A stretch of 64,000 nucleotides of DNA from a candidate division Kazan bacterium RIFCSPHIGHO2_01_FULL_44_14 (GCA_001771185.1 METB01000001.1:5875-69874), one strand, 5' to 3'. Counted from the stretch's first letter, positions 1-63,257 are shown. Notes: generated by a model from the sequence alone, not told the origin. Numbers and translations: made by a program.

Positions 1-97
1 CTAAATAACAATTACCAAAACAAAAAATAAAGTTTAGAACATTGGGATTTGGGATTTGTTTGAGATTTGGAGCTTGTAATTTGGGATTTAATTATTT

Positions 98-703
98 ATG
101 CGAACATTACCTAAATCAATTGAGCGGTTAATCACCAGTTTGAGTCAGTTGCCTGGTATCGGACCCAAAACGGCCTCACGGCTGGTGTTCTATTTAATCC
201 GACATAATCAAATAGATTTGTCGGGATTGGGCGAAGCGTTCGCTCGATTAAAGGAGGATTTGGTTTACTGCGGAATATGTCACAACATTGCTGATGCTGA
301 TCCGTGCACAATTTGTACTGACAAAAATCGTCATAGCGAAATGGTGTGTGTGGTTGAGGAGCCATTGGATGTAGTAGCGCTGGAGCGAGCCGGGTTTACT
401 GGTCTGTATCATGTTTTGGGTGGTTCAATTTCACCCCTAGAGGGCGTGGGCCCAAACGATTTGCAGATTAATAGTTTGATTGAGCGGTTGGGAGAAAATC
501 CACAGATTAAAGAGGTGATTATTGCCACTAACCCTGATGTCGAAGGGGAGGCCACCGCAACTTATTTAATAAAACTATTGGACGGTTTGTCCGTGAATGT
601 TTCTCGAATCGCGCGCGGATTACCGATGGGAGGGGATTTGGAATATGCGGATGAGTTAACATTAAGTCGGGCACTTGAGGGTAGAAATAAAGTGGGAGTA
701 TGA
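98..703 (+). CDS. recR: Recombination protein RecR (HhH, C4 zinc finger, Toprim)
   Basis: 201 aa. N-terminal GIGPKTA helix-hairpin-helix, a C-x2-C...C-x2-C zinc finger, and a Toprim segment with DVEGE. ATG at 98. Confidence 0.9.
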   Translation: MRTLPKSIERLITSLSQLPGIGPKTASRLVFYLIRHNQIDLSGLGEAFARLKEDLVYCGICHNIADADPCTICTDKNRHSEMVCVVEEPLDVVALERAGFTGLYHVLGGSISPLEGVGPNDLQINSLIERLGENPQIKEVIIATNPDVEGEATATYLIKLLDGLSVNVSRIARGLPMGGDLEYADELTLSRALEGRNKVGV

Positions 704-1614
704 CAAGGATTAACGGTAGAATCAGTTTTGTATTACAGGCACTATTCGTAGTGTTTTTGTGGTCAGCTGCCAAAATCATCATCAAGATGGGGGTGCAAGA
801 AATTCCACCGTTTATGTTTGCGGCTTTGGTTCAGACAATGGCAGTAGTGGGATTGTTAATTTATTACAAATTTCACAAACGGAAATATCGGCTAAAATTT
901 AATCGCCAAGATGTTCAGTTGATGATTTTGTTGGGATTGGTAACTTTTGGAGGATCAACTTTATTTTCAATTATTGGTTTGCAGTATGTGACAGGTGCAA
1001 CCGCTGGGATGATTGCTGCCCTAAACCCGCTGATGGCGGTCGGATTGTCGGTCGTAATTTTGCGGGAACGTCCAGGCGGTTGGCAATATTTGGGACTAAT
1101 CGGAATGCTAGTCGGAGCATATATTTTCCTGGCTCGGGGCGAAGTGACTGGGGCGCTGATTGGGATTGCATTATTGCTTTTAGCAGAAGCCGGGTTTGCT
1201 TTCAGCAATGTCGTGACTCGGTTAATTTCCCGTCAGCCCGGTGATGAATCACTAACGATTACTTTGGTGGGTAATTTGATCGGGGCGGTGACGCTGATTC
1301 CAATCGGTTTGACGGTAGACGGATTGTCATCAATCGCATTTACTCCGCATTTAGTGTCAATTATTGTGACAGTTGGATTAATTTTTGGATTTGGCGGACT
1401 GTTGTGGGCAGGAGTGCTGGATAAACTAAAAGTGGTGGAGGCCACGGTGTTGTCCAATACCATGATTGTCCAAATGGCTATTTTGTCAGTTCTATTCCTA
1501 GGGGAGGCATTAACTGCCAATAATATTACTGGAGGACTGCTGGTTTTGATTGGAGCGTTAGTAATTGATAAGGGTTTAATTTTGCCACCTCGGTTTACAA
1601 TGAAGATGGTATAG
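700..1614 (+). CDS. EamA/DMT-family membrane transporter
   Basis: 304 aa, about 10 predicted TM helices in two EamA-like halves. The ATGA start overlaps the recR stop. Confidence 0.75.
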   Translation: MTRINGRISFVLQALFVVFLWSAAKIIIKMGVQEIPPFMFAALVQTMAVVGLLIYYKFHKRKYRLKFNRQDVQLMILLGLVTFGGSTLFSIIGLQYVTGATAGMIAALNPLMAVGLSVVILRERPGGWQYLGLIGMLVGAYIFLARGEVTGALIGIALLLLAEAGFAFSNVVTRLISRQPGDESLTITLVGNLIGAVTLIPIGLTVDGLSSIAFTPHLVSIIVTVGLIFGFGGLLWAGVLDKLKVVEATVLSNTMIVQMAILSVLFLGEALTANNITGGLLVLIGALVIDKGLILPPRFTMKMV

Positions 1615-1794
1615 GGGACAGTGATAAGTGATAAGTGAGGATTGAGATAGAAGGTGAAGATATTTAATACATTAGGTCACTCCCTCCTTGTCGTCCTGAG
1701 TGAGGCGTGAGCCGAGTCGAAGGATCTAGTTCTGTTATATAGCAGAACGCTATCGCTAGATTCTTCGCTACGTTCAGAATGACAGTAAATCAAT

Positions 1795-3246
1795 ATGAGT
1801 TTAAAACTTTTCAACACACTCGGTCGGAAGAAGCAGGAATTCAAGCCAATCAAACGTGGTCAGGTTTCGATGTACACCTGTGGACCGACGGTCTATCGGT
1901 CTGCGCACATTGGAAATCTGCGGGCTTATCTATCGGCGGATATTTTGCGGCGGACTTTAGAATATAACGGTTACAAGGTGAAGCAGGTGATGAATGTCAC
2001 GGATGTAGGCCATTTAGTATCTGATGCTGATACTGGTGAAGATAAAGTAGAGCGAGAGTCGAGAAAAACCGGTAAAACTGCTAAAGAAATTACCAAGTTT
2101 TATGCGGAGCAATTCGTAAAAGATATTAAGGCGTTGAATATCGAAATGCCGGTGAAGTTTGCTTGGGCGAGCAAATATATTAAAGAACAGATTGATTTAA
2201 TTAAGCGGCTGGAGAAAAAAGGTTATACCTATAAAACAGCTGACGGGATTTATTTTGATACGGCGAAATTTAAGGGATATGGGAAGCTTGGAACAAGCGG
2301 ATTAGCAGGTAAGCAGGTAAGCAGGGTAGCGCATAGTAAAGAAAAGAAAAGAGAGGCCGATTTTGCGTTGTGGAAATTTTCTGGCAAGGAAAAACGGCAG
2401 CAGGAGTGGAAATCTCCGTGGGGGGTGGGATTCCCCGGCTGGCATATTGAGTGTTCGGCAATTTCCACCAAAGAATTGGGCCAGCCGTTCGATATTCATA
2501 CTGGCGGGATTGATCATGTCTTGATTCACCACAATGATGAAATTGCGCAGAGCGAAGCAGCTTATGGTAAGCCGCTGGCCAATTTCTGGGTGCATAATGA
2601 ATTTTTGCTGATGAATGACAAAAAGATAGCTAAGAGTGCCAAGAATTTTTATACCTTGTCGGATATTATAAAATTAGGATTTGAGCCGTTGGTATTGCGG
2701 TATTTTATGATTTCTGGCCAATACAGCAGTAAATTGAATTTTTCGAAAGCGGCGTTAGAGGGGGCGCAAAATTCTCTCAATAAATTACAAGCAGTATTTA
2801 GCATCTCTGCCTCGTCATCACCGACTCGATCGGGGATCCAGAAAGGAAAAACAAAAATGGATTCCCGCCTTCGTGGGAATGACAAAGGGGGAGTGGACGC
2901 AACATACAAAAAACGCTTTTTGTCTGCTTTAAACGACAACCTAAATCTGCCGAAGGCGTTGGCGGTAGTTTGGGAGTTATTGAAGTCGAAAAAGTCGTTG
3001 GCGGACAAACAAGTTACTTTATTGGATTTCGATAAGGTTTTGGGATTGGGATTGAAAGATTATAAACCAGAGGGGATCCCCGCCGAAGTTAAAAAATTGG
3101 CAGCAGAGCGAGAAATTGCCCGAAAGAAAAAAGATTGGAGCAAAGCTGATCAACTAAGGCGGGTAAGCAAAGGGTATTGGAATACCAGACCGATGAGATG
3201 CAAATTCCGCCTCAAGATCCGTGGGACGGACTATACCGTTTCGTAA
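1795..3246 (+). CDS. cysS: Cysteinyl-tRNA synthetase; carries an in-frame repeat-derived insertion at about 2820-2890
   Basis: Class I aaRS: CGPTVY, HIGN, a Zn-binding Cys near WHIECS, and a KIAKS (KMSKS-like) motif. About 20 extra residues (SSSPTRSGIQKGKTKMDSRLRGNDKGG) are encoded by a palindromic repeat module. Confidence 0.9.
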   Translation: MSLKLFNTLGRKKQEFKPIKRGQVSMYTCGPTVYRSAHIGNLRAYLSADILRRTLEYNGYKVKQVMNVTDVGHLVSDADTGEDKVERESRKTGKTAKEITKFYAEQFVKDIKALNIEMPVKFAWASKYIKEQIDLIKRLEKKGYTYKTADGIYFDTAKFKGYGKLGTSGLAGKQVSRVAHSKEKKREADFALWKFSGKEKRQQEWKSPWGVGFPGWHIECSAISTKELGQPFDIHTGGIDHVLIHHNDEIAQSEAAYGKPLANFWVHNEFLLMNDKKIAKSAKNFYTLSDIIKLGFEPLVLRYFMISGQYSSKLNFSKAALEGAQNSLNKLQAVFSISASSSPTRSGIQKGKTKMDSRLRGNDKGGVDATYKKRFLSALNDNLNLPKALAVVWELLKSKKSLADKQVTLLDFDKVLGLGLKDYKPEGIPAEVKKLAAEREIARKKKDWSKADQLRRVSKGYWNTRPMRCKFRLKIRGTDYTVS

Positions 3247-3440
3247 TGTTTGATATCCCGGAACGGAAAAAGCTGGCGCGGGAGGTATTTCGCGGTAAGC
3301 TGGTCCAGCTGGGTTTTAAAAAGATTCAGTATAGCGTTTGGCGACATCAGTATCCCTGTCAGCGGGAAATTGAATTTCTGGTTCATCTTTATGGGATTGC
3401 TGGATATGTTGATGTCGTGGAGGGTAAAAAAATTTCGTAG
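3198..3440 (+). CDS. Cas2-like (Cas2/VapD fold) small protein, solo; overlaps the cysS 3' end
   Basis: The motif RFVMFDIPERKKLAREVFRGKLVQLGFKKIQYSVW matches the Cas2 beta1-Asp...YG.R.Q.SVF core. It is paralogous to the C-terminus of the ORF at 27501-28001. The ATG at 3198 (an alternative TTG lies at 3177) is in a different frame from cysS and overlaps it. Confidence 0.5.
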   Translation: MQIPPQDPWDGLYRFVMFDIPERKKLAREVFRGKLVQLGFKKIQYSVWRHQYPCQREIEFLVHLYGIAGYVDVVEGKKIS

Positions 3441-3490
3441 TTTATCCATCTTTTAATGATAATCAAGGGGAAGAGTGGGAGTCAGAATAC

Positions 3491-3522
3491 GCCGAGTTGA
3501 AGCGGCCGCTTCAACTCGGCGT
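3491..3522. repeat. 32-nt perfect palindrome cgccgagttgaagcGGCCgcttcaactcggcg downstream of the Cas2-like gene
   Basis: The sequence equals its own reverse complement. GTAGGATAGG direct repeats follow it. Confidence 0.7.
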
Positions 3523-4008
3523 GAAGGGTAGGTAGGATAGGGCAGACAGGTAGGATAGGACAGATGCGGAAGTGAGCCATAGATAAATAGTGGAAAAAGT
3601 AAAAGGCCACCCGGGGTAAACCCAAGTGGCCTGTTTTGTGCGCGACAGTCCCAGAACCGTAAACGAAATGAAGGAAGAAAAAGTTTACGGCCTCCGCCTG
3701 GACTCACTCCGTTTCCCATACCACCTTGTATGGTTTGGATTTTCGTCGCGCTTCCGCCCCCTGGCAGCGTTTGGGAGGTGAGTTTTGAAAACAAATCTCA
3801 CGCCTGATTAGGAGCGGAAAGTTAGGAGGGAGATGCAATGGCGGGTGACTTATAAAAAGATGATTGCCAGCGAACGCCGAGTCACCCTAAGGAACATGAT
3901 AGATGATGACAAATAACCCTCCGACTATAAGACGCTATCATATGGCTGATTTTAAGTCAAGCACAAAAACTTGGCTCTAGACCAATAAAAAGTGGTAGGG
4001 GATAGGTG

Positions 4009-4671
4009 TTATTTCTGGTCCTGCTTGAACCAGATAAAGGACATTAGAATTGGTAAACATCCGGCAATCGCAACTCCAACCATGGGAACATAGAAATTGT
4101 AAGGGGTGGGCATAAACGGCGAGAGCAGAAATAGGACGCCGCCGATGGCGAAGGTATAGGCGCCCAGGCGATGAGTTTTTTGCCAGTTGGCTTCGCTGTC
4201 TAATGTCCATGGGGTTCGAATCCCCATAAAAAAATTGGATTTAACTTGAGTCAAATAATTGCCAATAAAGATAAACAAGATTCCAACTGAAACCGGAACG
4301 ATTTTGCCAACAGCGATCGCATTTCCAGTAATCGCAGCGTAGGTGGTTAGTCCGTACATAAAAGCGAAAAATACCATCATAAAATTACGAATCATTTGGT
4401 AGAAACCCCATGATTCAAGGAAGTGCTGACGGCGTGGCTCGATGTGAGGTAGGAGCAAAAAAAGTAGATACAGAGCCAACATCATGCCGGGGAACATCAA
4501 CACATGTCCTAGGGGCGTGGTCCAATCATCAACTTGTCCACTAATTCCCCAATGGGATGGGACTTCACTAGGAAGTAGGGGATAGGCCCAGATGGCGGTG
4601 GCAATCACGGCCACAATTAACAGAATTGATAGCCATTCCGACTTAAAAGTGAATTGGATTTTTTGCATCAT
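4009..4671 (-). CDS. SdpI/YhfL-like multi-pass membrane protein (DUF1648-like)
   Basis: 220 aa, about 6 TM helices. It is co-directional with, and overlaps by 4 nt, an upstream ArsR-type regulator, matching the SdpR-SdpI architecture. Confidence 0.55.
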   Translation of the reverse strand: MMQKIQFTFKSEWLSILLIVAVIATAIWAYPLLPSEVPSHWGISGQVDDWTTPLGHVLMFPGMMLALYLLFLLLPHIEPRRQHFLESWGFYQMIRNFMMVFFAFMYGLTTYAAITGNAIAVGKIVPVSVGILFIFIGNYLTQVKSNFFMGIRTPWTLDSEANWQKTHRLGAYTFAIGGVLFLLSPFMPTPYNFYVPMVGVAIAGCLPILMSFIWFKQDQK

Positions 4672-4937
4672 TTGAATCCCTCCAAAAAATTATTTAATAT
4701 TTCATAGAACACAGTAGCGTTGAGTGAGTAATAGATTTTCTGACCCTCCTTGTCGGCGGTGATGAGGTTGGCGGATTTGAGCAGGGCCAAGTGGTGGGAC
4801 AGGGACGGCTTAGAAATCGGGAAGAAGGTGGTCATCTCCCCTGGGGTCATCGAACGGTTGCGGAGTTTTTTTAGAATATCTCGACGAGTTGGATCGGATA
4901 ATGCTTTGAAAGCCAAAGATACGTCGCGGATAGCCAT
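4668..4937 (-). CDS. ArsR/SdpR-family winged-HTH transcriptional repressor
   Basis: 89 aa. LSDPTRRDILKKL...SLSHHLALLKSANLI is a typical ArsR HTH. Confidence 0.8.
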   Translation of the reverse strand: MAIRDVSLAFKALSDPTRRDILKKLRNRSMTPGEMTTFFPISKPSLSHHLALLKSANLITADKEGQKIYYSLNATVFYEILNNFLEGFK

Positions 4938-4942
4938 AGGTG

Positions 4943-4976
4943 TATATTTAGATATTTGTCTAACTATCTAAATATA
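4943..4976. promoter_or_regulatory. 12-bp perfect inverted repeat (TATATTTAGATA-N10-TATCTAAATATA); candidate operator for the ArsR/SdpR regulator
   Basis: It lies 6 bp upstream of the regulator start codon and is read directly from the sequence. Confidence 0.5.
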
Positions 4977-5540
4977 GTTGAGGTTTCAAAGAGTGTCAAG
5001 AGGGGAGATAATTTCCAGAAGGGTGGTTTTTGAGGTTTTTGGGATTTTCAAATTTCTTTTGTTTATTTTTGTTATTTTTTTTGCAACGCCTGTGTCGCGT
5101 TGCATCGATGGTTTTTGCCACCCCATTTGCTTGTCCAAATGGGGTGGCGCCCCAAAAGACACCCCACTCACCAATTGCTAGCCAAAATAGAAAATCACCC
5201 TTTCTGGTCTCCTCGCCCGCATTGCTACGCAAAGCGTTGCGGGCGGGTAACGCAAACTCGTCGCTACGCTCCTCAAACATGCTGGACCAAGCAGGTGATT
5301 TTCTAATTGGCGAACCCGCCTACCGGCAGGCAGGCGCAATTGGTTCGATGGGTCCTGGTAAGATTAACACCCAGGAGAATTGAGAGGATACCATAACTTT
5401 TAACTATCTCCATCTCTCCCCTGCCTGCCTGCCCGCCTGCCGGAGGACAGGTAGGCCTGCTGGTTTACAAAAAATTGGCCCTGGGCTAGGGCGGCGCCCC
5501 GTAGTGAAAAATTGGCACTGCTTGGCTTTTGGGCGAAGCC

Positions 5541-5568
5541 CTGACAATTTCTACTACCGGGGTATAAT
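5541..5568 (+). promoter_or_regulatory. Sigma70-like promoter (CTGACA-N16-TATAAT) for the tRNA
   Basis: The -10 TATAAT at 5563-5568 is 10 nt upstream of the tRNA 5' end. Confidence 0.45.
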
Positions 5569-5578
5569 CAGGTTGTAT

Positions 5579-5652
5579 TCCCGGATCGTCTAGCGGCAGG
5601 ACACTTGGTTTTGGTCCAAGGAACCGGGGTTCGAATCCCTGTCCGGGAGCCA
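5579..5652 (+). tRNA. tRNA-Gln (anticodon UUG), CCA encoded
   Basis: Acceptor stem tcccgga/tccggga, a GGTTCGAATCC T-loop, an anticodon loop uuUUGgu, and a 3' gCCA. Confidence 0.8.
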
Positions 5653-5775
5653 GAGGTTTCAGTGTGGAATTCTCATCCCATTTGGCGTGAAAATTTATAA
5701 GGAATAAAAAGTTTTCTGGATATAAAAAAGACGAGCGATGCTCGTCTTTTAGTTTTTAAGAACAAGAACAAGAAG

Positions 5776-6129
5776 TCAGGTCACTGCCGGGAAATGGAAA
5801 TCTGGTGGGAGTTTGGCAAGGAGGCGATACGCTTCTTGGTCCATCTGCTTACCCAGACGGCGCTGCTGTTGCTGTTTTGCTCGGATTTCTTCATTAATCT
5901 GCCAGATCGGCATTGGCTCGGGGCCTTCTGCCAGAATCGTCTCAAGTGAGGATGGCATAACCCACGAATAGTCAATCGGAGCGGTTCTCCGCATCTCGAT
6001 GAGCCCTCCTATTTCTCTCTCGACTTCCATGTACTGGTCATCGAGTTTCTTAAAGGATGGTTGGCTCATCAACCAGTCCCACAAGTTATCTCGGCGCTTG
6101 AACTCCCGAACCTTGCGCCGGATTGACAT
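5776..6129 (-). CDS. Hypothetical protein (about 118 aa)
   Basis: The ORF at 5776-6264 is trimmed to the Met at 6129 because a strong promoter lies inside the longer ORF. No recognisable domain. Confidence 0.4.
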   Translation of the reverse strand: MSIRRKVREFKRRDNLWDWLMSQPSFKKLDDQYMEVEREIGGLIEMRRTAPIDYSWVMPSSLETILAEGPEPMPIWQINEEIRAKQQQQRRLGKQMDQEAYRLLAKLPPDFHFPAVT

Positions 6130-6202
6130 CGATCCAAATATAGCACTAATCCGCTTGGCTAAGAAGATAAACAAGGTGCACCTCCAACACAAAGATAGTT
6201 GC

Positions 6203-7755: not shown

Positions 7756-7908
7756 GAGTGAGTGATAATCTGAATTATATTATATCAATCTAATTCAATA
7801 AATCAGAGCGGGTTGGGGGCGGATAATGCTTACGCAGTTAATTGGTTAGCGAGATTCCTGCAATTAGATGAACGGCCGTTCAGTATATTGCAAAATATGA
7901 CATAGGGA

Positions 7909-15266: not shown

Positions 15267-15698
15267 TTTTTGTTTTCTTTTTCAAGCGTTCTCACCGCGC
15301 TTGACCCGTTAGTATTTCTTCTCGTCATTGCGAGCTGTAGGCGTGGCAATCTAATCCTCCCCTTAAGATAAGGGGAGGATTAGGAAGGGTTATTGACTGA
15401 TTATATTCTTAACTCCCCCTTACTCCTCTTACCTTAAGAGGGGTGACCACAACTATTCATCACAAATCCTTCCGTGGTTCTACTATCTAGTAGAACAAAG
15501 GAGGACCTTTAACTGATTAATAGACAAGTCCTCATCCTAGGGCCAAAAAAAGAAGCAGGAAGCCAACTTGGTTGTTAAATTCTATGTGTAGTGGAAGGAA
15601 ACGGCCGTCTATTTATACAACACGGGGGAAGAAGTGGAATAGATTGATGAATCTGGCGTCTAAATTCGAGATTCTAAATCCCATATTCTAGATTTTAC

Positions 15699-26947: not shown

Positions 26948-27319
26948 ATGGCAGAAAAAGATCAGGAATTCGTGGAATATGCGGTGCGGGCAATTGTAGA
27001 AAACCCCGACAAAGTTAAGGTCGAACGAACTATTGATGAACGGGGCGTATTGTTGTCATTGGAAGTCGATCCAGCGGACATGGGCAAAATTATCGGCAAA
27101 GATGGTCGGACGGCAAAAGCCATTCGGACATTGCTTCGAGTGTTGGGTGCCCAGAACGATGCCCGAGTGAACTTAAAGATTATTGAGCCAGAAGGCGGTC
27201 TTGGCCGGGCTTCTGAACGGGCAGAACAGCCAGTTGAACCAGTGGCTGAACCAGTAGCCGTAGTCGATGTGCCCGAGACCACTTCCAAAGAAGACCTTGG
27301 TGTGCTGGACGAAGAATAA
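26948..27319 (+). CDS. KH-domain RNA-binding protein (YlqC-like)
   Basis: IIGKDGRTAKAIRTL is a GxxG KH motif. Canonical position after rpsP. Confidence 0.75.
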   Translation: MAEKDQEFVEYAVRAIVENPDKVKVERTIDERGVLLSLEVDPADMGKIIGKDGRTAKAIRTLLRVLGAQNDARVNLKIIEPEGGLGRASERAEQPVEPVAEPVAVVDVPETTSKEDLGVLDEE

Positions 27320-27435: not shown

Positions 27436-27475
27436 CTCTTGCCCACTCTGACGACGGCCGTCGTCAGAATGGGCA
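27436..27475. repeat. 40-nt near-perfect palindrome (cttgcccactctgacgacggccgtcgtcagaatgggcaag); left flank of the Cas2-like cassette
   Basis: One mismatch from a perfect self-complement. Its core gacgacggccgtcgtc is repeated at 27966-27998. Confidence 0.65.
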
Positions 27476-27500
27476 AGTTAATTACTGATATAATGATAAT

Positions 27501-28001
27501 ATGAGGACTTCAGGTGGAGCATATCGTTGGCTGATGAGGTTGATGTACGCGACGGATCCTAGATGGGAAGTGAAGGTGGACCGATCGCTCGATCACCGAT
27601 TCGGTAGTCGCCAACCAATTCGATCGCTACGAAGTTTCAGATATCTATGCTCAAAGGGGTACTTAACTCATCTGGAAGGAGATAGATATCAACTAACCGA
27701 TTTAGCGCGGATTAATCTCTTGCAGGAAATGGTTAAGCGGCGTAAGCCGGACGGCAAGTGGCGTGTGGTGGTATTCGACATCCCGGAAAAATTAAGACAA
27801 AATCGCAATGTCTTTCGGCACCATTTGATCAATTTGGGATTTAGGATGAAACAACAGAGTGTGTGGGTATCGCCTCTACCGTGTGAGGATTTGGTGGCAT
27901 TAGTGGTGAAGTACCACGGTTTAGGACAGTTTGTGGAGTTAATAGTAGGAAAAGATGTGCCCCTTAGGACGACGGCCGTCGTCAGAGTGGGCAGGGAATA
28001 G
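27501..28001 (+). CDS. wHTH + Cas2-like domain protein (PaaX-like architecture), solo
   Basis: C-terminal WRVVVFDIPEKLRQNRNVFRHHLINLGFRMKQQSVW matches the Cas2 beta1-Asp/SVF motif and is paralogous to 3198-3440. An N-terminal segment (GYLTHLEGDRYQLTDLAR) resembles a winged helix. It sits where rimM usually lies. Confidence 0.5.
   Translation: MRTSGGAYRWLMRLMYATDPRWEVKVDRSLDHRFGSRQPIRSLRSFRYLCSKGYLTHLEGDRYQLTDLARINLLQEMVKRRKPDGKWRVVVFDIPEKLRQNRNVFRHHLINLGFRMKQQSVWVSPLPCEDLVALVVKYHGLGQFVELIVGKDVPLRTTAVVRVGRE
27966..27998. repeat. Second copy of the gacgacggccgtcgtcagagtgggcagg palindrome, at the 3' end of the Cas2-like ORF
   Basis: Shares a 24-nt identical core with 27436-27475 and encodes the ORF C-terminus (TTAVVRVGRE). 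Confidence 0.6.
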
Positions 28002-28032: not shown

Positions 28033-28761
28033 ATGAAATATACGGTTATTACAATTTTTCCGCAGTTAATTGAAGATTATTTCCAGGAAGGGATTTTGTC
28101 TCGAGCTTTGCGGAACAAGCAGGTGGGATTGAAAACGATTAATCCGCGGAAATTTACCAAAGACCGACACCAAACGGTGGATGATATACCGTATGGCGGG
28201 GGAGCGGGACTCGTTATGAAGATTGAGCCGTTAGTAAAAGCGATTAAATCTGCAGCTAGGTCTCGTTTTCGTCATTCCGAACTTGTTTCGGAATCTAGTT
28301 CTAAAACGGAGAAGATCCTGAAACAAGTTCAGGATGACGGGAAAAAAGTAAGAATTATTTTGCTCGACCCAAGAGGCAAAAGATTTACGCAGAAAGAGGC
28401 GAAACGGTTAACGAAATATGATGAGTTGATTTTTGTGTGTGGAAGGTATGAGGGGGTGGATGAAAGAATTAAATATTACATCGACGAGAAGTTGTCGATC
28501 GGGGATTTTGTGCTAATGGGCGGGGAGTTGGGGGCGCTGACCATAATGGAATCCGTGGCGCGGTTAATCCCGGGGGTTCTGCACCATCCCGAGTCGGCAA
28601 AGTTTGAGAGTTTTTCTTTTGGGGATAATTTGGAACACCCGCAATACACTCGGCCGGAGGTATTCGAGGGGCATAAGGTGCCGAAAGTACTCTTGTCGGG
28701 ACATCATGGGAAGGTGGAGGAGTGGCGAGTAAAAAATGGTAAGAATAAGAGAGGAATCTAA
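28033..28761 (+). CDS. trmD: tRNA (guanine37-N1)-methyltransferase; carries an in-frame repeat insertion at about 28266-28340
   Basis: SPOUT-fold TrmD motifs (YGGGAGLVM, CGRYEGVDERI, GGEL). About 22 extra residues between the conserved blocks are encoded by two hairpin modules (ttccgaa-cttgt-ttcggaa and tcctgaa-acaag-ttcagga). Confidence 0.9.
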   Translation: MKYTVITIFPQLIEDYFQEGILSRALRNKQVGLKTINPRKFTKDRHQTVDDIPYGGGAGLVMKIEPLVKAIKSAARSRFRHSELVSESSSKTEKILKQVQDDGKKVRIILLDPRGKRFTQKEAKRLTKYDELIFVCGRYEGVDERIKYYIDEKLSIGDFVLMGGELGALTIMESVARLIPGVLHHPESAKFESFSFGDNLEHPQYTRPEVFEGHKVPKVLLSGHHGKVEEWRVKNGKNKRGI

Positions 28762-29820: not shown

Positions 29821-30068
29821 AGAGCGCTACGCTAGATCCTTCGGCTTGCTTTGCTCGCTCAGGATGACAGAAGGAGGAGATAAGAATGACGAAAATGGAT
29901 CCTGAAACCCCTCGATAAACTCGGGATACTGTAAATTCAGGATGATGAGAGAGCGCTATGCTAGATTCTTCGCTACGCTCAGAGTGACAAAAGAGGGGCG
30001 GGAATGACGAGGATGGATCCTGAAACCCCTCGATAAACTCGGGATACTGTAAATTCAGGATGACGGGG
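29821..30068. repeat. Two tandem copies of a ~129-bp composite repeat upstream of uvrB
   Basis: Copy 1 runs 29821-29949 and copy 2 runs 29950-30068. They share an identical 49-mer (ggatcctgaaacccctcgataaactcgggatactgtaaattcaggatga). A related unit lies at 56090-56160. Confidence 0.7.
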
Positions 30069-43651: not shown

Positions 43652-44057
43652 CATACAATTCAGATTGGTGAGATGGGTGAGAAAATGTTATAAAAAGAAA
43701 CGGCCGTCTATTTATAAAACATATTTTCTCTATAGGGTTGACACCGAATTCTGCTGTGGTAATCTGGTCGCGTTCCCTGCTGTTGGACTGTGAGTTTTGC
43801 CCTCCCCCCAAAGGAATCCCATAGGTCCGATATGCGGGTGAATTGTTCTTGAACCGGAAGCCGGCCATAATCTCTCAACTATAGTGCCAGATGTCTGGAA
43901 GCGATAGCATCATGCTGTGACCCAGAGGCATTTTATCAGTTGAAGGCCGCCATTGTCTGCTGAAGATATGGATGGCAAAATGACCGGTATAAATTAAGGG
44001 TCCCCATTGCGCAAGCTGGGGACCTGTTTTTATGTTCGGTCAGGCATAATAGAGGAG

Positions 44058-62918: not shown

Positions 62919-63257
62919 CTGGGGCAATAATCAATAACCGAGCACCGAATCTCAAATAAGGAGATATCTACTTAGGACTTCGCACAAGATACATTGTGCG
63001 ACATTGTCTATCTTGGTCTCTTGGACCATCCCGAGTGTAGCCGAGGGACCTCCCCCGCCGAATATAAAAATGTCATTTCGAGCGTAGTCGAGAAATCTAT
63101 GTAGATTCTGAAACAAGTTCAGAATGACTAAATAGGTATCACTCCCCCGTTTACGGGTATCGCCCTTAAACAATACGCTCCCAGAGCGATATTTAACTAA
63201 TTTATAGGTGGTTTTAATATGAAAAAGCCCACCATAGTACTGGTGGGCTAAGAGTTG

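What the first reader, a model, noticed from the sequence alone, without database searches (positions are those of the whole stretch)
3177..3522. Solo Cas2-like gene overlapping the 3' end of cysS, followed by a 32-nt perfect palindrome; no CRISPR array or cas1
The ~80-aa ORF carries the Cas2 core (hydrophobic beta1 + Asp: VMFDIPE; basic helix; LGF.K.QYSVW). It starts inside the last ~50-70 nt of cysS in another frame. The cysS C-terminal residues in the annotated frame (…VSKGYWNTRPMRCKFRLKIRGTDYTVS) do not resemble the usual ...GI.LEDTP.GT.W end. The insertion of this gene may therefore have remodelled the cysS terminus. A perfect 32-nt palindrome follows at 3491-3522. No CRISPR-like array exists anywhere in the 64 kb.
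Basis: partly seen in the sequence, partly recalled or inferred. Interest (0 to 1): 0.68.

Follow-up and report, generated by a model that had tools for sequence, protein, structure and literature searches.

The report
Deletion remnant of a mini-PaaX gene
The "solo Cas2-like gene" is the leftover back half of a small PaaX-type DNA-binding regulator gene: a recent 437-bp deletion removed its front half together with the last 22 codons of the neighbouring cysS gene, so it is a mutation scar and not a new gene arrangement or a CRISPR relic.

Summary
ORF 3177-3440 carries a PaaX_M (Cas2-like) domain (Pfam 63.8 bits). True Cas2 profiles stay below threshold. The cysS C-terminus is abnormal: CysS_C breaks off at profile position 32 of 51.

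Several public contigs are 100% identical to the window on both sides of position 3153 and show the ancestral state:
- intact cysS of 475 aa, ending ...FGFEIEDTPSGPRVS
- a 124-nt spacer holding a palindrome and an extended -10 promoter
- an intact 176-aa gene (winged helix plus Cas2-like domain)

The window equals these contigs minus 437 bp, with 1 nt of microhomology at the junction. The deletion removed 22 cysS codons, the promoter, the upstream palindrome and the whole winged-helix domain. cysS now reads 30 out-of-frame codons into the remnant.

The deletion allele is deposited in two Kazan-division MAGs. The intact allele is on more contigs. The remnant is most likely a promoterless pseudogene.

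The palindrome is 34 nt (3489-3522). It is the downstream member of a pair that brackets genes of this family, including an intact paralog at 27501-28001. That bracketing is the only part I could not find described.

The parts
1795..3246 (+). cysS, deletion allele. Residues 1-453 are native; the 30 codons from 3154 to 3243 are out-of-frame mini-PaaX sequence; stop TAA is at 3244-3246.
   Evidence: Pfam tRNA-synt_1e 309 bits. CysS_C reaches only profile 3-32/51 at 20.9 bits. The intact allele is 475 aa in L101/L082. The identical 483-aa product is public as OGB73260.1/OGB77505.1.
3153..3154 (.). Deletion junction. 437 bp are missing relative to L101 7455-7891, with 1-nt (A) microhomology.
   Evidence: Window 1-3153 = L101 4302-7454 and window 3153-6177 = L101 7891-10915, both 100%. 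Sequences were read.
3154..3440 (+). Remnant of the 176-codon wHTH + PaaX_M (Cas2-like) gene: codons 82-176 plus the stop. The first-stage ORF is 3177-3440. In-frame ATGs lie at 3198 and 3246. Public annotation aa from ATG 3246, which overlaps the cysS stop as TAATG.
   Evidence: PaaX_M 63.8 bits. The C-terminal 95 aa are identical to those of L101 7648-8178. The 64-aa annotation is OGB73261.1. The AF2 model places the linker helix at 83-95 and the ferredoxin-like domain at 109-172.
3489..3522 (.). Downstream palindrome of the module: ACGCCGAGTTGAAGCGG/CCGCTTCAACTCGGCGT, 17+17 nt, perfect. As RNA it folds at -28.9 kcal/mol with a GGCC loop and no U-tract.
   Evidence: (motif is unique in the window). 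Orthologous copies flank the gene in L101, L082, L001, L081 and L083. Covariation is shown.
3530..3564 (+). 1.9 copies of AGGTAGGATAGGACAGAC directly after the palindrome. It resembles the TAGGAT promoter-proximal segment that follows the upstream palindrome in L081.
   Evidence: Window 3489-3541 matches L081 5659-5709 at 90.6%.
27438..27477 (.). Upstream palindrome of the intact paralog module (CTTGCCCACTCTGACGACGGCCGTCGTCAGAATGGGCAAG).
27501..28001 (+). Intact paralog, 166 aa, wHTH-like + PaaX_M. It is preceded by the extended -10 TGATATAAT (27486-27494) with 6 nt to the ATG. It sits between a KH-domain gene and trmD.
   Evidence: phmmer E 1.5e-15 against the remnant. P0152 is 100% identical and carries PF20803. 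Context is; the sequence was read.
27958..27993 (.). Downstream palindrome of the paralog module (TGCCCCTTAGGACGACGGCCGTCGTCAGAGTGGGCA). It overlaps the last codons of the gene.

Best explanation
SHOWN
- In the immediate ancestor, cysS (475 codons) was followed by a 124-nt spacer. The spacer held a 36-nt palindrome and an extended -10 promoter (TGGTAAGAT, then 6 nt, then ATG).
- Next came a 176-codon gene for a small dimer-type regulator: an N-terminal winged helix, a linker helix and a C-terminal Cas2-like PaaX_M domain.
- A second copy of the palindrome followed the gene.
- A 437-bp deletion with 1 nt of microhomology joined cysS codon 453 to codon 82 of the regulator gene.
- The deletion removed the last 22 CysRS residues (the end of the anticodon-binding CysS_C domain), the spacer, the promoter, the upstream palindrome and the whole winged-helix domain.

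INFERRED
- cysS ribosomes now run 30 codons out of frame into the remnant and stop at TAA 3244-3246.
- The remnant has no promoter, no convincing Shine-Dalgarno sequence and no DNA-binding domain, so it is a pseudogene. At most, traces of an 80-aa or 64-aa Cas2-like fragment are made from the cysS mRNA.
- The surviving 34-nt palindrome now serves only as a 3' hairpin of the cysS transcript.
- In the intact module, the protein probably binds its flanking palindromes as a dimer. The upstream palindrome covers the -35 region of a leaderless promoter, which would give autorepression.
For: Ancestral state and breakpoints:
- L101, L102, L107 and L108 are 100% identical to the window on both flanks and carry the extra 437 bp.
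- The near-identical strain L082 shows the same arrangement.
- The more distant L001 (69% CysRS identity) has the same cysS, palindrome, 176-aa gene, palindrome layout.
- The window's frame upstream of the ORF reads STKAGKQRVLEYQTDEMQIP, matching L001's LTKAGKQRVLEYRADEIQIP.

Domains:
- CysS_C is cut at profile position 32/51 in the window, against 44/51 in relatives.
- The intact CysRS aligns end to end with PDB 3sp1.
- Family members are typically 170-240 aa with the domain at the C-terminus; only about 12 of the best 150 are under 150 aa.
- The AF2 model (pLDDT 84) shows wHTH + linker + ferredoxin-like fold.
- The best PDB fold match is E. coli W PaaX, 8a39.

Expression signals:
- No sigma-70-like promoter is found on the + strand of 2800-4100.
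- No SD-like sequence precedes TTG 3177, ATG 3198 or ATG 3246.

The allele is probably real:
- The identical 483-aa product is deposited from two MAGs.
- A JGI contig (L104) ends 3 nt before the breakpoint, as expected at an assembly-graph branch.
Against: - I could not inspect reads, so a consensus or curation error in the source assembly is not excluded.
- The two MAGs that share the allele come from one project and may not be independent.
- A CysRS that lacks the end of its anticodon-binding domain might be too impaired for an organism with a single cysS. That would argue for an artefact or a minority variant. Only 64 kb could be checked for a second cysS, and none was found.
- The remnant ORF is intact, and its second ATG overlaps the cysS stop (TAATG). 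Some translation therefore cannot be ruled out.
- The operator role of the palindromes is inferred from geometry only.
Confidence: 0.85

Rival explanations
1. The deletion is an assembly or curation artefact in the source genome. The organism really has the intact cysS and the 176-aa gene.
For: The intact allele, with 100% identical flanks, is found on many more contigs and samples: the 475/450-aa CysRS on at least 8 contigs and the 176-aa protein on at least 8 contigs. The deletion damages an essential enzyme. The truncated products are absent from the gene-position index.
Against: The same 483-aa product is deposited from two differently named MAGs. The junction has only 1 nt of microhomology and no shared k-mer, which is not how graph assemblers make false joins. 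Contig L104 stops 3 nt before the breakpoint, as expected if both alleles were present in that sample.
Confidence: 0.15
2. The remnant is a functional stand-alone Cas2-like protein. For example, it could be a dominant-negative partner or anti-repressor of PaaX_M paralogs, expressed from the cysS mRNA by termination-reinitiation at the TAATG overlap.
For: The ORF is intact. ATG 3246 overlaps the cysS stop codon. In L081 the orthologous gene is split at the same linker by an in-frame TAG, followed 3 codons later by the same ATG. A few family representatives are only 94-131 aa long.
Against: The flanks are 100% identical to intact alleles, so there has been no time for selection to act. The 64-aa product would lack most of strand beta1 (model; Pfam match begins 9 residues upstream of that Met). 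There is no promoter or SD sequence. The only paralog in the window is a distant relative (phmmer E 1.5e-15). L081's flanking palindromes are also degenerate, which fits decay.
Confidence: 0.07
3. This is a relic of a CRISPR-Cas adaptation module: a true cas2 that outlived cas1 and the array.
For: There are weak matches to Cas2 profiles: Pfam 19 bits, TIGR01573 24.0 bits, PADLOC Cas2 models at E 1e-5 to 1e-7. The paralog is publicly named 'CRISPR-associated endonuclease Cas2'.
Against: All Cas2 matches cover only beta1-alpha1 and fall below curated cutoffs for the remnant, while PaaX_M scores 63.8 bits. The full-length protein carries an N-terminal winged helix, and its best fold match is PaaX 8a39. 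No array is present. About 2,200 family clusters share the wHTH + PaaX_M architecture.
Confidence: 0.02
4. There is programmed recoding: a frameshift fuses CysRS to the Cas2-like domain.
For: The two frames overlap, and an A-rich run (AAGAAAAAAG, 3125-3134) lies upstream.
Against: The Cas2-like frame has a TGA at 3147-3149, downstream of the A-run. The overlap was created by a deletion absent from identical strains. No relative has such a fusion.
Confidence: 0.01

Closest known systems
PaaX, repressor of phenylacetate catabolism (E. coli W; PDB 8a39; Pfam PF07848 + PF20803 + PF08223)
   Same: It shares the central Cas2-like PaaX_M domain (63.8 bits). The full-length ancestor has an N-terminal winged helix followed by that domain. 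PaaX is the best fold match (E 4.4e-5, 178 aligned columns). PaaX is a DNA-binding repressor (PMC4498308).
   Different: It has no PaaX_C domain, so no recognisable ligand-sensing part. It is 176 aa against about 305 aa. The TIGR02277 score is 32 bits against a cutoff of 264.55. No paa genes are nearby. The window copy has also lost the winged helix.
Cas2 (CRISPR adaptation protein)
   Same: Both have the ferredoxin-like beta-alpha-beta-beta-alpha-beta fold with the hydrophobic beta1 + Asp motif (FDIPE; D115 is invariant in the family alignment). Cas2 chains appear among fold matches at E 0.02-0.05.
   Different: Profile matches are sub-threshold and partial. There is no array, and cas1 was not looked for. 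Here the domain is a module of a DNA-binding regulator.
Rv0674 / PaaX-like proteins of unknown function (PDB 3kfw)
   Same: Two-domain wHTH + Cas2-like layout. It is fold match rank 4.
   Different: It is longer (234 aa). No sequence-level match was found.
Ordinary microhomology-mediated deletion that creates a gene-fusion pseudogene
   Same: Clean 437-bp loss, 1-nt microhomology, imperfect short repeats near both ends (CTGA...CGGGTAA), out-of-frame read-through, and flanks 100% identical to intact alleles.
   Different: It clips the anticodon-binding domain of the only cysS seen in the window, in a genome of about 0.7 Mb.

Membership tests
PaaX_M domain family (Pfam PF20803) | Profile match above the gathering score | tested here: met
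   63.8 bits against 24; residues 14-85 match profile 2-73 of 83.
PaaX proper (TIGR02277; PF07848 + PF20803 + PF08223) | Three-domain architecture including PaaX_C; equivalog score of at least 264.55 | tested here: not met
   22.9 bits (remnant) and 32 bits (intact 176-aa form). There is no PaaX_C or PF07848 hit.
PaaX proper | Genomic association with paa catabolic genes | tested here: not met
   Neighbours are cysS, SdpI-like, ArsR-like, tRNA-Gln and DUF5671 genes.
Cas2 (CRISPR-associated) | Full-length match above the curated cutoff to a Cas2 profile | tested here: not met
   Pfam CRISPR_Cas2 19.0 against 23.8 (profile 4-35/74). TIGR01573 24.0 against 24.5 (profile 2-40/96).
Cas2 (CRISPR-associated) | Neighbouring CRISPR array | tested here: not met
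   No regularly spaced repeat family in 64 kb.
Cas2 (CRISPR-associated) | Neighbouring cas1 | not tested
   The window ORFs were not scanned against a Cas1 profile.
Cas2 (CRISPR-associated) | Ferredoxin-like fold with Asp at the end of beta1 | tested here: met
   AF2 model: beta109-114, alpha118-133, beta137-140, beta143-146, alpha151-160, beta167-172, with pLDDT 93-98. D115 is invariant.
VapD / other Cas2-fold families | Profile match | tested here: not met
   No VapD family is listed at E <= 1 in Pfam.
Cysteinyl-tRNA synthetase | Class I catalytic domain | tested here: met
   PF01406 309 bits, profile 2-300/301.
Cysteinyl-tRNA synthetase | Complete C-terminal anticodon-binding domain (PF23493) | tested here: not met
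   Profile 3-32/51, 20.9 bits, below 23. Intact relatives match 4-44/51 at 35-40 bits. 22 native residues are missing.
Intrinsic (rho-independent) terminator | GC-rich hairpin followed by a U-tract | tested here: not met
   The hairpin is strong (-28.9 kcal/mol) but is followed by GAAGGGUAGG. The terminator scan does not call it.

The most novel reading that the evidence does not exclude
The unit 'long perfect palindrome, wHTH + Cas2-like (PaaX_M) gene, second copy of the same palindrome' may be a widespread, self-contained cassette of Patescibacteria/CPR genomes that the literature I could search does not describe.

What was observed:
- Each paralog has its own palindrome sequence, centred on CGGCCG, CTATAG or ACACGTGT.
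- The two arms co-vary so that perfect symmetry is kept.
- Cassettes sit in different housekeeping contexts (after cysS, between khpA and trmD, after tig).
- Solo, degenerate palindromes occur elsewhere in the window.

This could be a self-regulating insulated gene unit whose hairpins are bound or processed by its own product, or a mobile or recombinogenic cassette.
Probability: 0.3. Interest if true: 0.55.

Novelty: new member of a known kind. Interest (0 to 1): 0.24.

Why it matters
For the finding as stated, the value is mostly corrective.
- Public records call this family 'CRISPR-associated endonuclease Cas2' and call the remnant a hypothetical protein. It is neither a CRISPR relic nor an overlapping-gene innovation.
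- Two deposited Kazan-division genomes carry a cysS allele without the end of the anticodon-binding domain. This matters for metabolic or essential-gene inference from those MAGs, and it offers a natural test of how much of CysS_C a minimal genome needs.
- The more general lead is that small wHTH + PaaX_M regulators in CPR bacteria are bracketed by cognate perfect palindromes. If confirmed, that would give a function and binding sites to a family of about 2,200 sequence clusters with no known role.

Tried and rejected
- Rfam, on the whole window at gathering threshold and on 3400-4100 at E <= 10, found only tRNA-Gln. Nothing explains the palindrome or the 3523-4008 spacer.
- ARAGORN found no tmRNA or tRNA near the finding.
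- PADLOC gave only weak partial Cas2 hits, so there is no defence-system assignment.
- I first read the hydrophobic N-terminal stretch of the 176-aa protein as a membrane helix. I dropped this after a weak alignment to ArsR-type winged helices (E 0.15) and the AF2 model, which folds most of it into the wHTH region but with low confidence (mean pLDDT 56-67 over residues 21-50; 29-31 below 50).
- A frameshift fusion of CysRS to the Cas2-like domain was rejected, because a TGA sits at 3147-3149 in the target frame.
- dN/dS on the remnant was not attempted. The flanks are 100% identical to intact alleles, so there is no post-deletion divergence to measure.
- Exact-product look-ups for the truncated CysRS and the 80-aa ORF in the gene-position index failed. 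The cluster look-up then showed that the 483-aa product is public.
- Literature searches for PaaX with Cas2-like, PF20803 or PaaX_M found nothing on these CPR proteins.
- The first word-index homolog search with the 87-aa ORF returned a single hit. The exhaustive representative search was needed to see the family.

Full report
**1. What is in the window**

cysS occupies 1795-3246 (+). A second ORF runs from 3177 to 3440 in another frame: TTG at 3177, in-frame ATGs at 3198 and 3246, stop at 3438-3440.

Pfam assigns the ORF product to PF20803, 'PaaX protein central Cas2-like domain', at 63.8 bits (E 1.6e-17). CRISPR_Cas2 reaches only 19.0 bits (cutoff 23.8). TIGR01573 reaches 24.0 bits (cutoff 24.5) and covers only beta1-alpha1. 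PADLOC Cas2 models give equally partial matches.

The CysRS catalytic domain is complete at 309 bits. The C-terminal anticodon-binding domain CysS_C stops at profile position 32 of 51 and falls below its cutoff.

The palindrome is 34 nt, 3489-3522, with 17+17 perfect arms. TRF and the direct-repeat scan show no CRISPR-like array.

**2. The ancestral state**

A scan of species-representative genomes with the CysRS found relatives whose homology to the window ends at residue about 455.

- In L001 (69% identity) cysS ends ...ADQLRTQISRLGFAVEDTSSGPKMSRN. A 176-aa gene follows, and its second half is the window's ORF.
- The window's ORF frame upstream of its first start codon reads STKAGKQRVLEYQTDEMQIP. 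L001 reads LTKAGKQRVLEYRADEIQIP. The window therefore keeps the middle of that gene but not its start.
- A metagenome scan then found L082, which is 99.85% identical to window 590-3166. It carries an intact 475-aa cysS, a spacer and the intact 176-aa gene.
- Looking up contigs that encode the window's neighbouring EamA protein gave L101, L102, L107 and L108. These are 100% identical to the window on both sides: window 1-3153 = L101 4302-7454, and window 3153-6177 = L101 7891-10915.
- All of them hold 437 extra bases (L101 7455-7891).

**3. The deletion**

- The left end lies after cysS codon 453 (...KADQ). The right end lies at codon 82 of the downstream gene. One A is shared at the junction.
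- The flanks carry loosely similar short repeats: CTGATCAATTACGGGTAA and CTGACTAAGGCGGGTAA.
- What was lost:
  - 22 CysRS residues (LRVKIAEFGFEIEDTPSGPRVS)
  - the 124-nt spacer
  - residues 1-81 of the downstream protein.
- CysRS now ends in 30 unrelated residues encoded out of frame by the remnant (453 + 30 = 483 aa).
- The intact CysRS aligns end to end with Borrelia CysRS (PDB 3sp1), including the lost segment.

**4. Is the allele real?**

- The exact 483-aa product is public under two accessions, from candidate division Kazan MAGs RIFCSPHIGHO2_01_FULL_44_14 and RIFCSPLOWO2_01_FULL_45_19 (longest contig 699,981 bp).
- The remnant is annotated there as a 64-aa hypothetical protein that starts at ATG 3246.
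- The intact alleles are on more contigs and samples.
- JGI contig L104 ends 3 nt before the breakpoint, as happens where an assembly graph branches.
- The junction has no shared k-mer.
- I therefore judge it a real, very recent polymorphism at about 0.8. Without reads, an artefact cannot be excluded.

**5. What the lost gene is**

- An exhaustive search found 2,205 representative clusters at E <= 1e-3. Members are typically 170-240 aa with the domain at the C-terminus.
- An AlphaFold model of the 176-aa protein (61-sequence alignment, mean pLDDT 84) shows three parts:
  - a winged helix (helices 10-20, 34-42 and 52-64; wing 68-81)
  - a linker helix (83-95)
  - a ferredoxin-like beta-alpha-beta-beta-alpha-beta domain (109-172).
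- Foldseek against the PDB ranks E. coli W PaaX (8a39) first, at E 4.4e-5. Winged-helix proteins and Rv0674 follow, with Cas2 chains at E 0.02-0.05.
- PaaX is a repressor whose DNA binding is relieved by phenylacetyl-CoA (PMC4498308).
- The protein here lacks PaaX_C and scores far below the PaaX equivalog cutoff. It is a 'mini-PaaX', not PaaX.
- The deletion removed exactly its DNA-binding half.

**6. The palindrome**

- In L101, L082, L001 and L081 the gene is bracketed by two copies of the same palindrome; on L083 (a 1,650-bp contig) the downstream copy is perfect and the upstream one degenerate. The window keeps only the downstream copy.
- Across nine orthologous copies, 94.7% of arm positions pair. 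Four pairs show changes on both sides. No shuffle out of 500 reaches the covariation score.
- As read directly from the sequence, the upstream copy ends 7 nt before an extended -10 (TGGTAAGAT, L101 7633-7641). That motif lies 6 nt before the ATG. This is leaderless geometry, with the palindrome over the -35 region.
- The same geometry holds for the window's intact paralog, with TGATATAAT at 27486-27494.

**7. The pattern is general**

- The window holds a second, intact family member at 27501-28001. It sits between a KH-domain gene and trmD and is bracketed by its own palindromes at 27438-27477 and 27958-27993.
- In 772 kb of fetched loci, 16 of 59 strong palindromes lie in the 1.2% of sequence next to PaaX_M gene ends. 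The expected number is 0.72 (Poisson P about 1e-16). These loci are not all independent.
- Three orthologs of the paralog (L121, L123, L125) are all bracketed by GAACGGCCGTTC-centred palindromes. Their genomic contexts differ.
- I infer that the protein recognises its flanking palindromes and autoregulates. Arm covariation also fits a hairpin role in RNA or single-stranded DNA. The present data do not separate these two readings.

**8. Consequences in the window (inferred)**

- The remnant has no promoter and no SD-like sequence before any candidate start.
- Termination-reinitiation at TAATG would give a 64-aa product without most of beta1.
- In L081 the ortholog carries an in-frame TAG at the same linker, and its palindromes are degenerate. 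The gene therefore appears to be dispensable.
- The remnant is best read as a pseudogene. The truncated CysRS may be an impaired enzyme.

**9. Verdict**

The feature is a recent deletion scar that joins cysS to the back half of a known-family regulator gene. It is ordinary in kind. The palindrome-bracketed mini-PaaX cassette is the only lead of wider interest.

Noticed in passing
window 27438-28001: An intact 166-aa wHTH + PaaX_M paralog (27501-28001) sits between a KH-domain gene (26948-27319) and trmD (28033-28761). It is bracketed by its own CGGCCG-centred palindromes (27438-27477, 27958-27993) and preceded by an extended -10, TGATATAAT, 6 nt before the ATG. Public records name it 'CRISPR-associated endonuclease Cas2'. 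The NCBIfam cas2 score is 27.7 against a cutoff of 24.5, but it covers only profile 2-42/96.
   Followed up: partly
L045 5559-6279; L088 1824-2490; L099 2260-2822; L086 166-215; L091 3329-3366; L016 6076-6117; L121, L123, L125 around 1860-2462: Distant members of the PaaX_M family are flanked by long perfect palindromes of 26-50 nt. Each gene has its own sequence, and the centres are CTATAG, CGGCCG or ACACGTGT. Upstream and downstream copies differ by symmetric (compensated) changes. About half of the genes sampled show this at a strict threshold.
   Followed up: partly
window 7859-7892, 15586-15623, 43679-43728: Three solo, partly degenerate CGGCCG-centred palindromes have 13-15 of 20 arm positions paired, against 4-11 for the other CGGCCG sites. 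15595-15618 and 43695-43718 share GAAACGGCCGTCTATTTATA. 7859-7892 resembles the palindrome of the L123 module. They could be trans targets or relics of lost modules. GCGGCCGC and ACGGCCGT are 8-9 times more frequent than expected in the window.
   Followed up: partly
window 3523-4008: A 485-nt non-coding stretch lies between the palindrome and the convergent SdpI-like gene. Folding z-scores are -3.2 (+ strand) and -3.6 (- strand). A canonical terminator lies on the minus strand at 3632-3604. The stretch is 75% conserved in L083 and has no Rfam match. It could be a long 3' UTR of the sdpI-arsR operon or an unknown RNA.
   Followed up: partly
L081 5989-5991: The ortholog in another MAG (JAZDLM010000021) has an in-frame TAG exactly at the wHTH/Cas2-like linker (LEY*TDEMQIP). 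It is annotated as separate 92-aa and 80-aa genes, and both flanking palindromes carry mismatches. This is a second, independent inactivation of the same gene.
   Followed up: partly
L016 5359-6069; L045 5580-6227; L001 5683-6213: A PaaX_M gene lies directly downstream of cysS in at least three of the 80 cysS loci fetched, and two of these are only about 50% identical in CysRS. That is more often than I would guess for a family with a few copies per genome. No significance test was run.
   Followed up: no
window 3523 onward vs L082 3379 onward / L103 5366 onward: Two strain types diverge completely right after the downstream palindrome. Type A (the window, L101, L102) continues into the SdpI-ArsR-tRNA-Gln block. 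Type B (L082, L103, L105) continues into a 250-259-aa gene and then DUF5671. Identity between the two strain types falls to 93.9% over window 3153-3528, which includes the last part of the regulator gene.
   Followed up: no
window ~2820-2900 (cysS codons ~343-368); also 1755-1784, 29960-29989, 63100-63129: cysS carries an in-frame segment (SGIQKGKTKMDSRLRGNDKG) that looks derived from the short dispersed hairpin repeats littering this genome (...TTCAGAATGACA type). The segment is conserved in the L001, L002 and L082 CysRS. The window has many such repeat families.
   Followed up: no
L104 end (window-equivalent 3150); L107, L108 ends (window-equivalent 3435): Several public contigs of this population break at the deletion breakpoint or just before the downstream palindrome. 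This suggests assembly-graph branching at these two polymorphic points.
   Followed up: no
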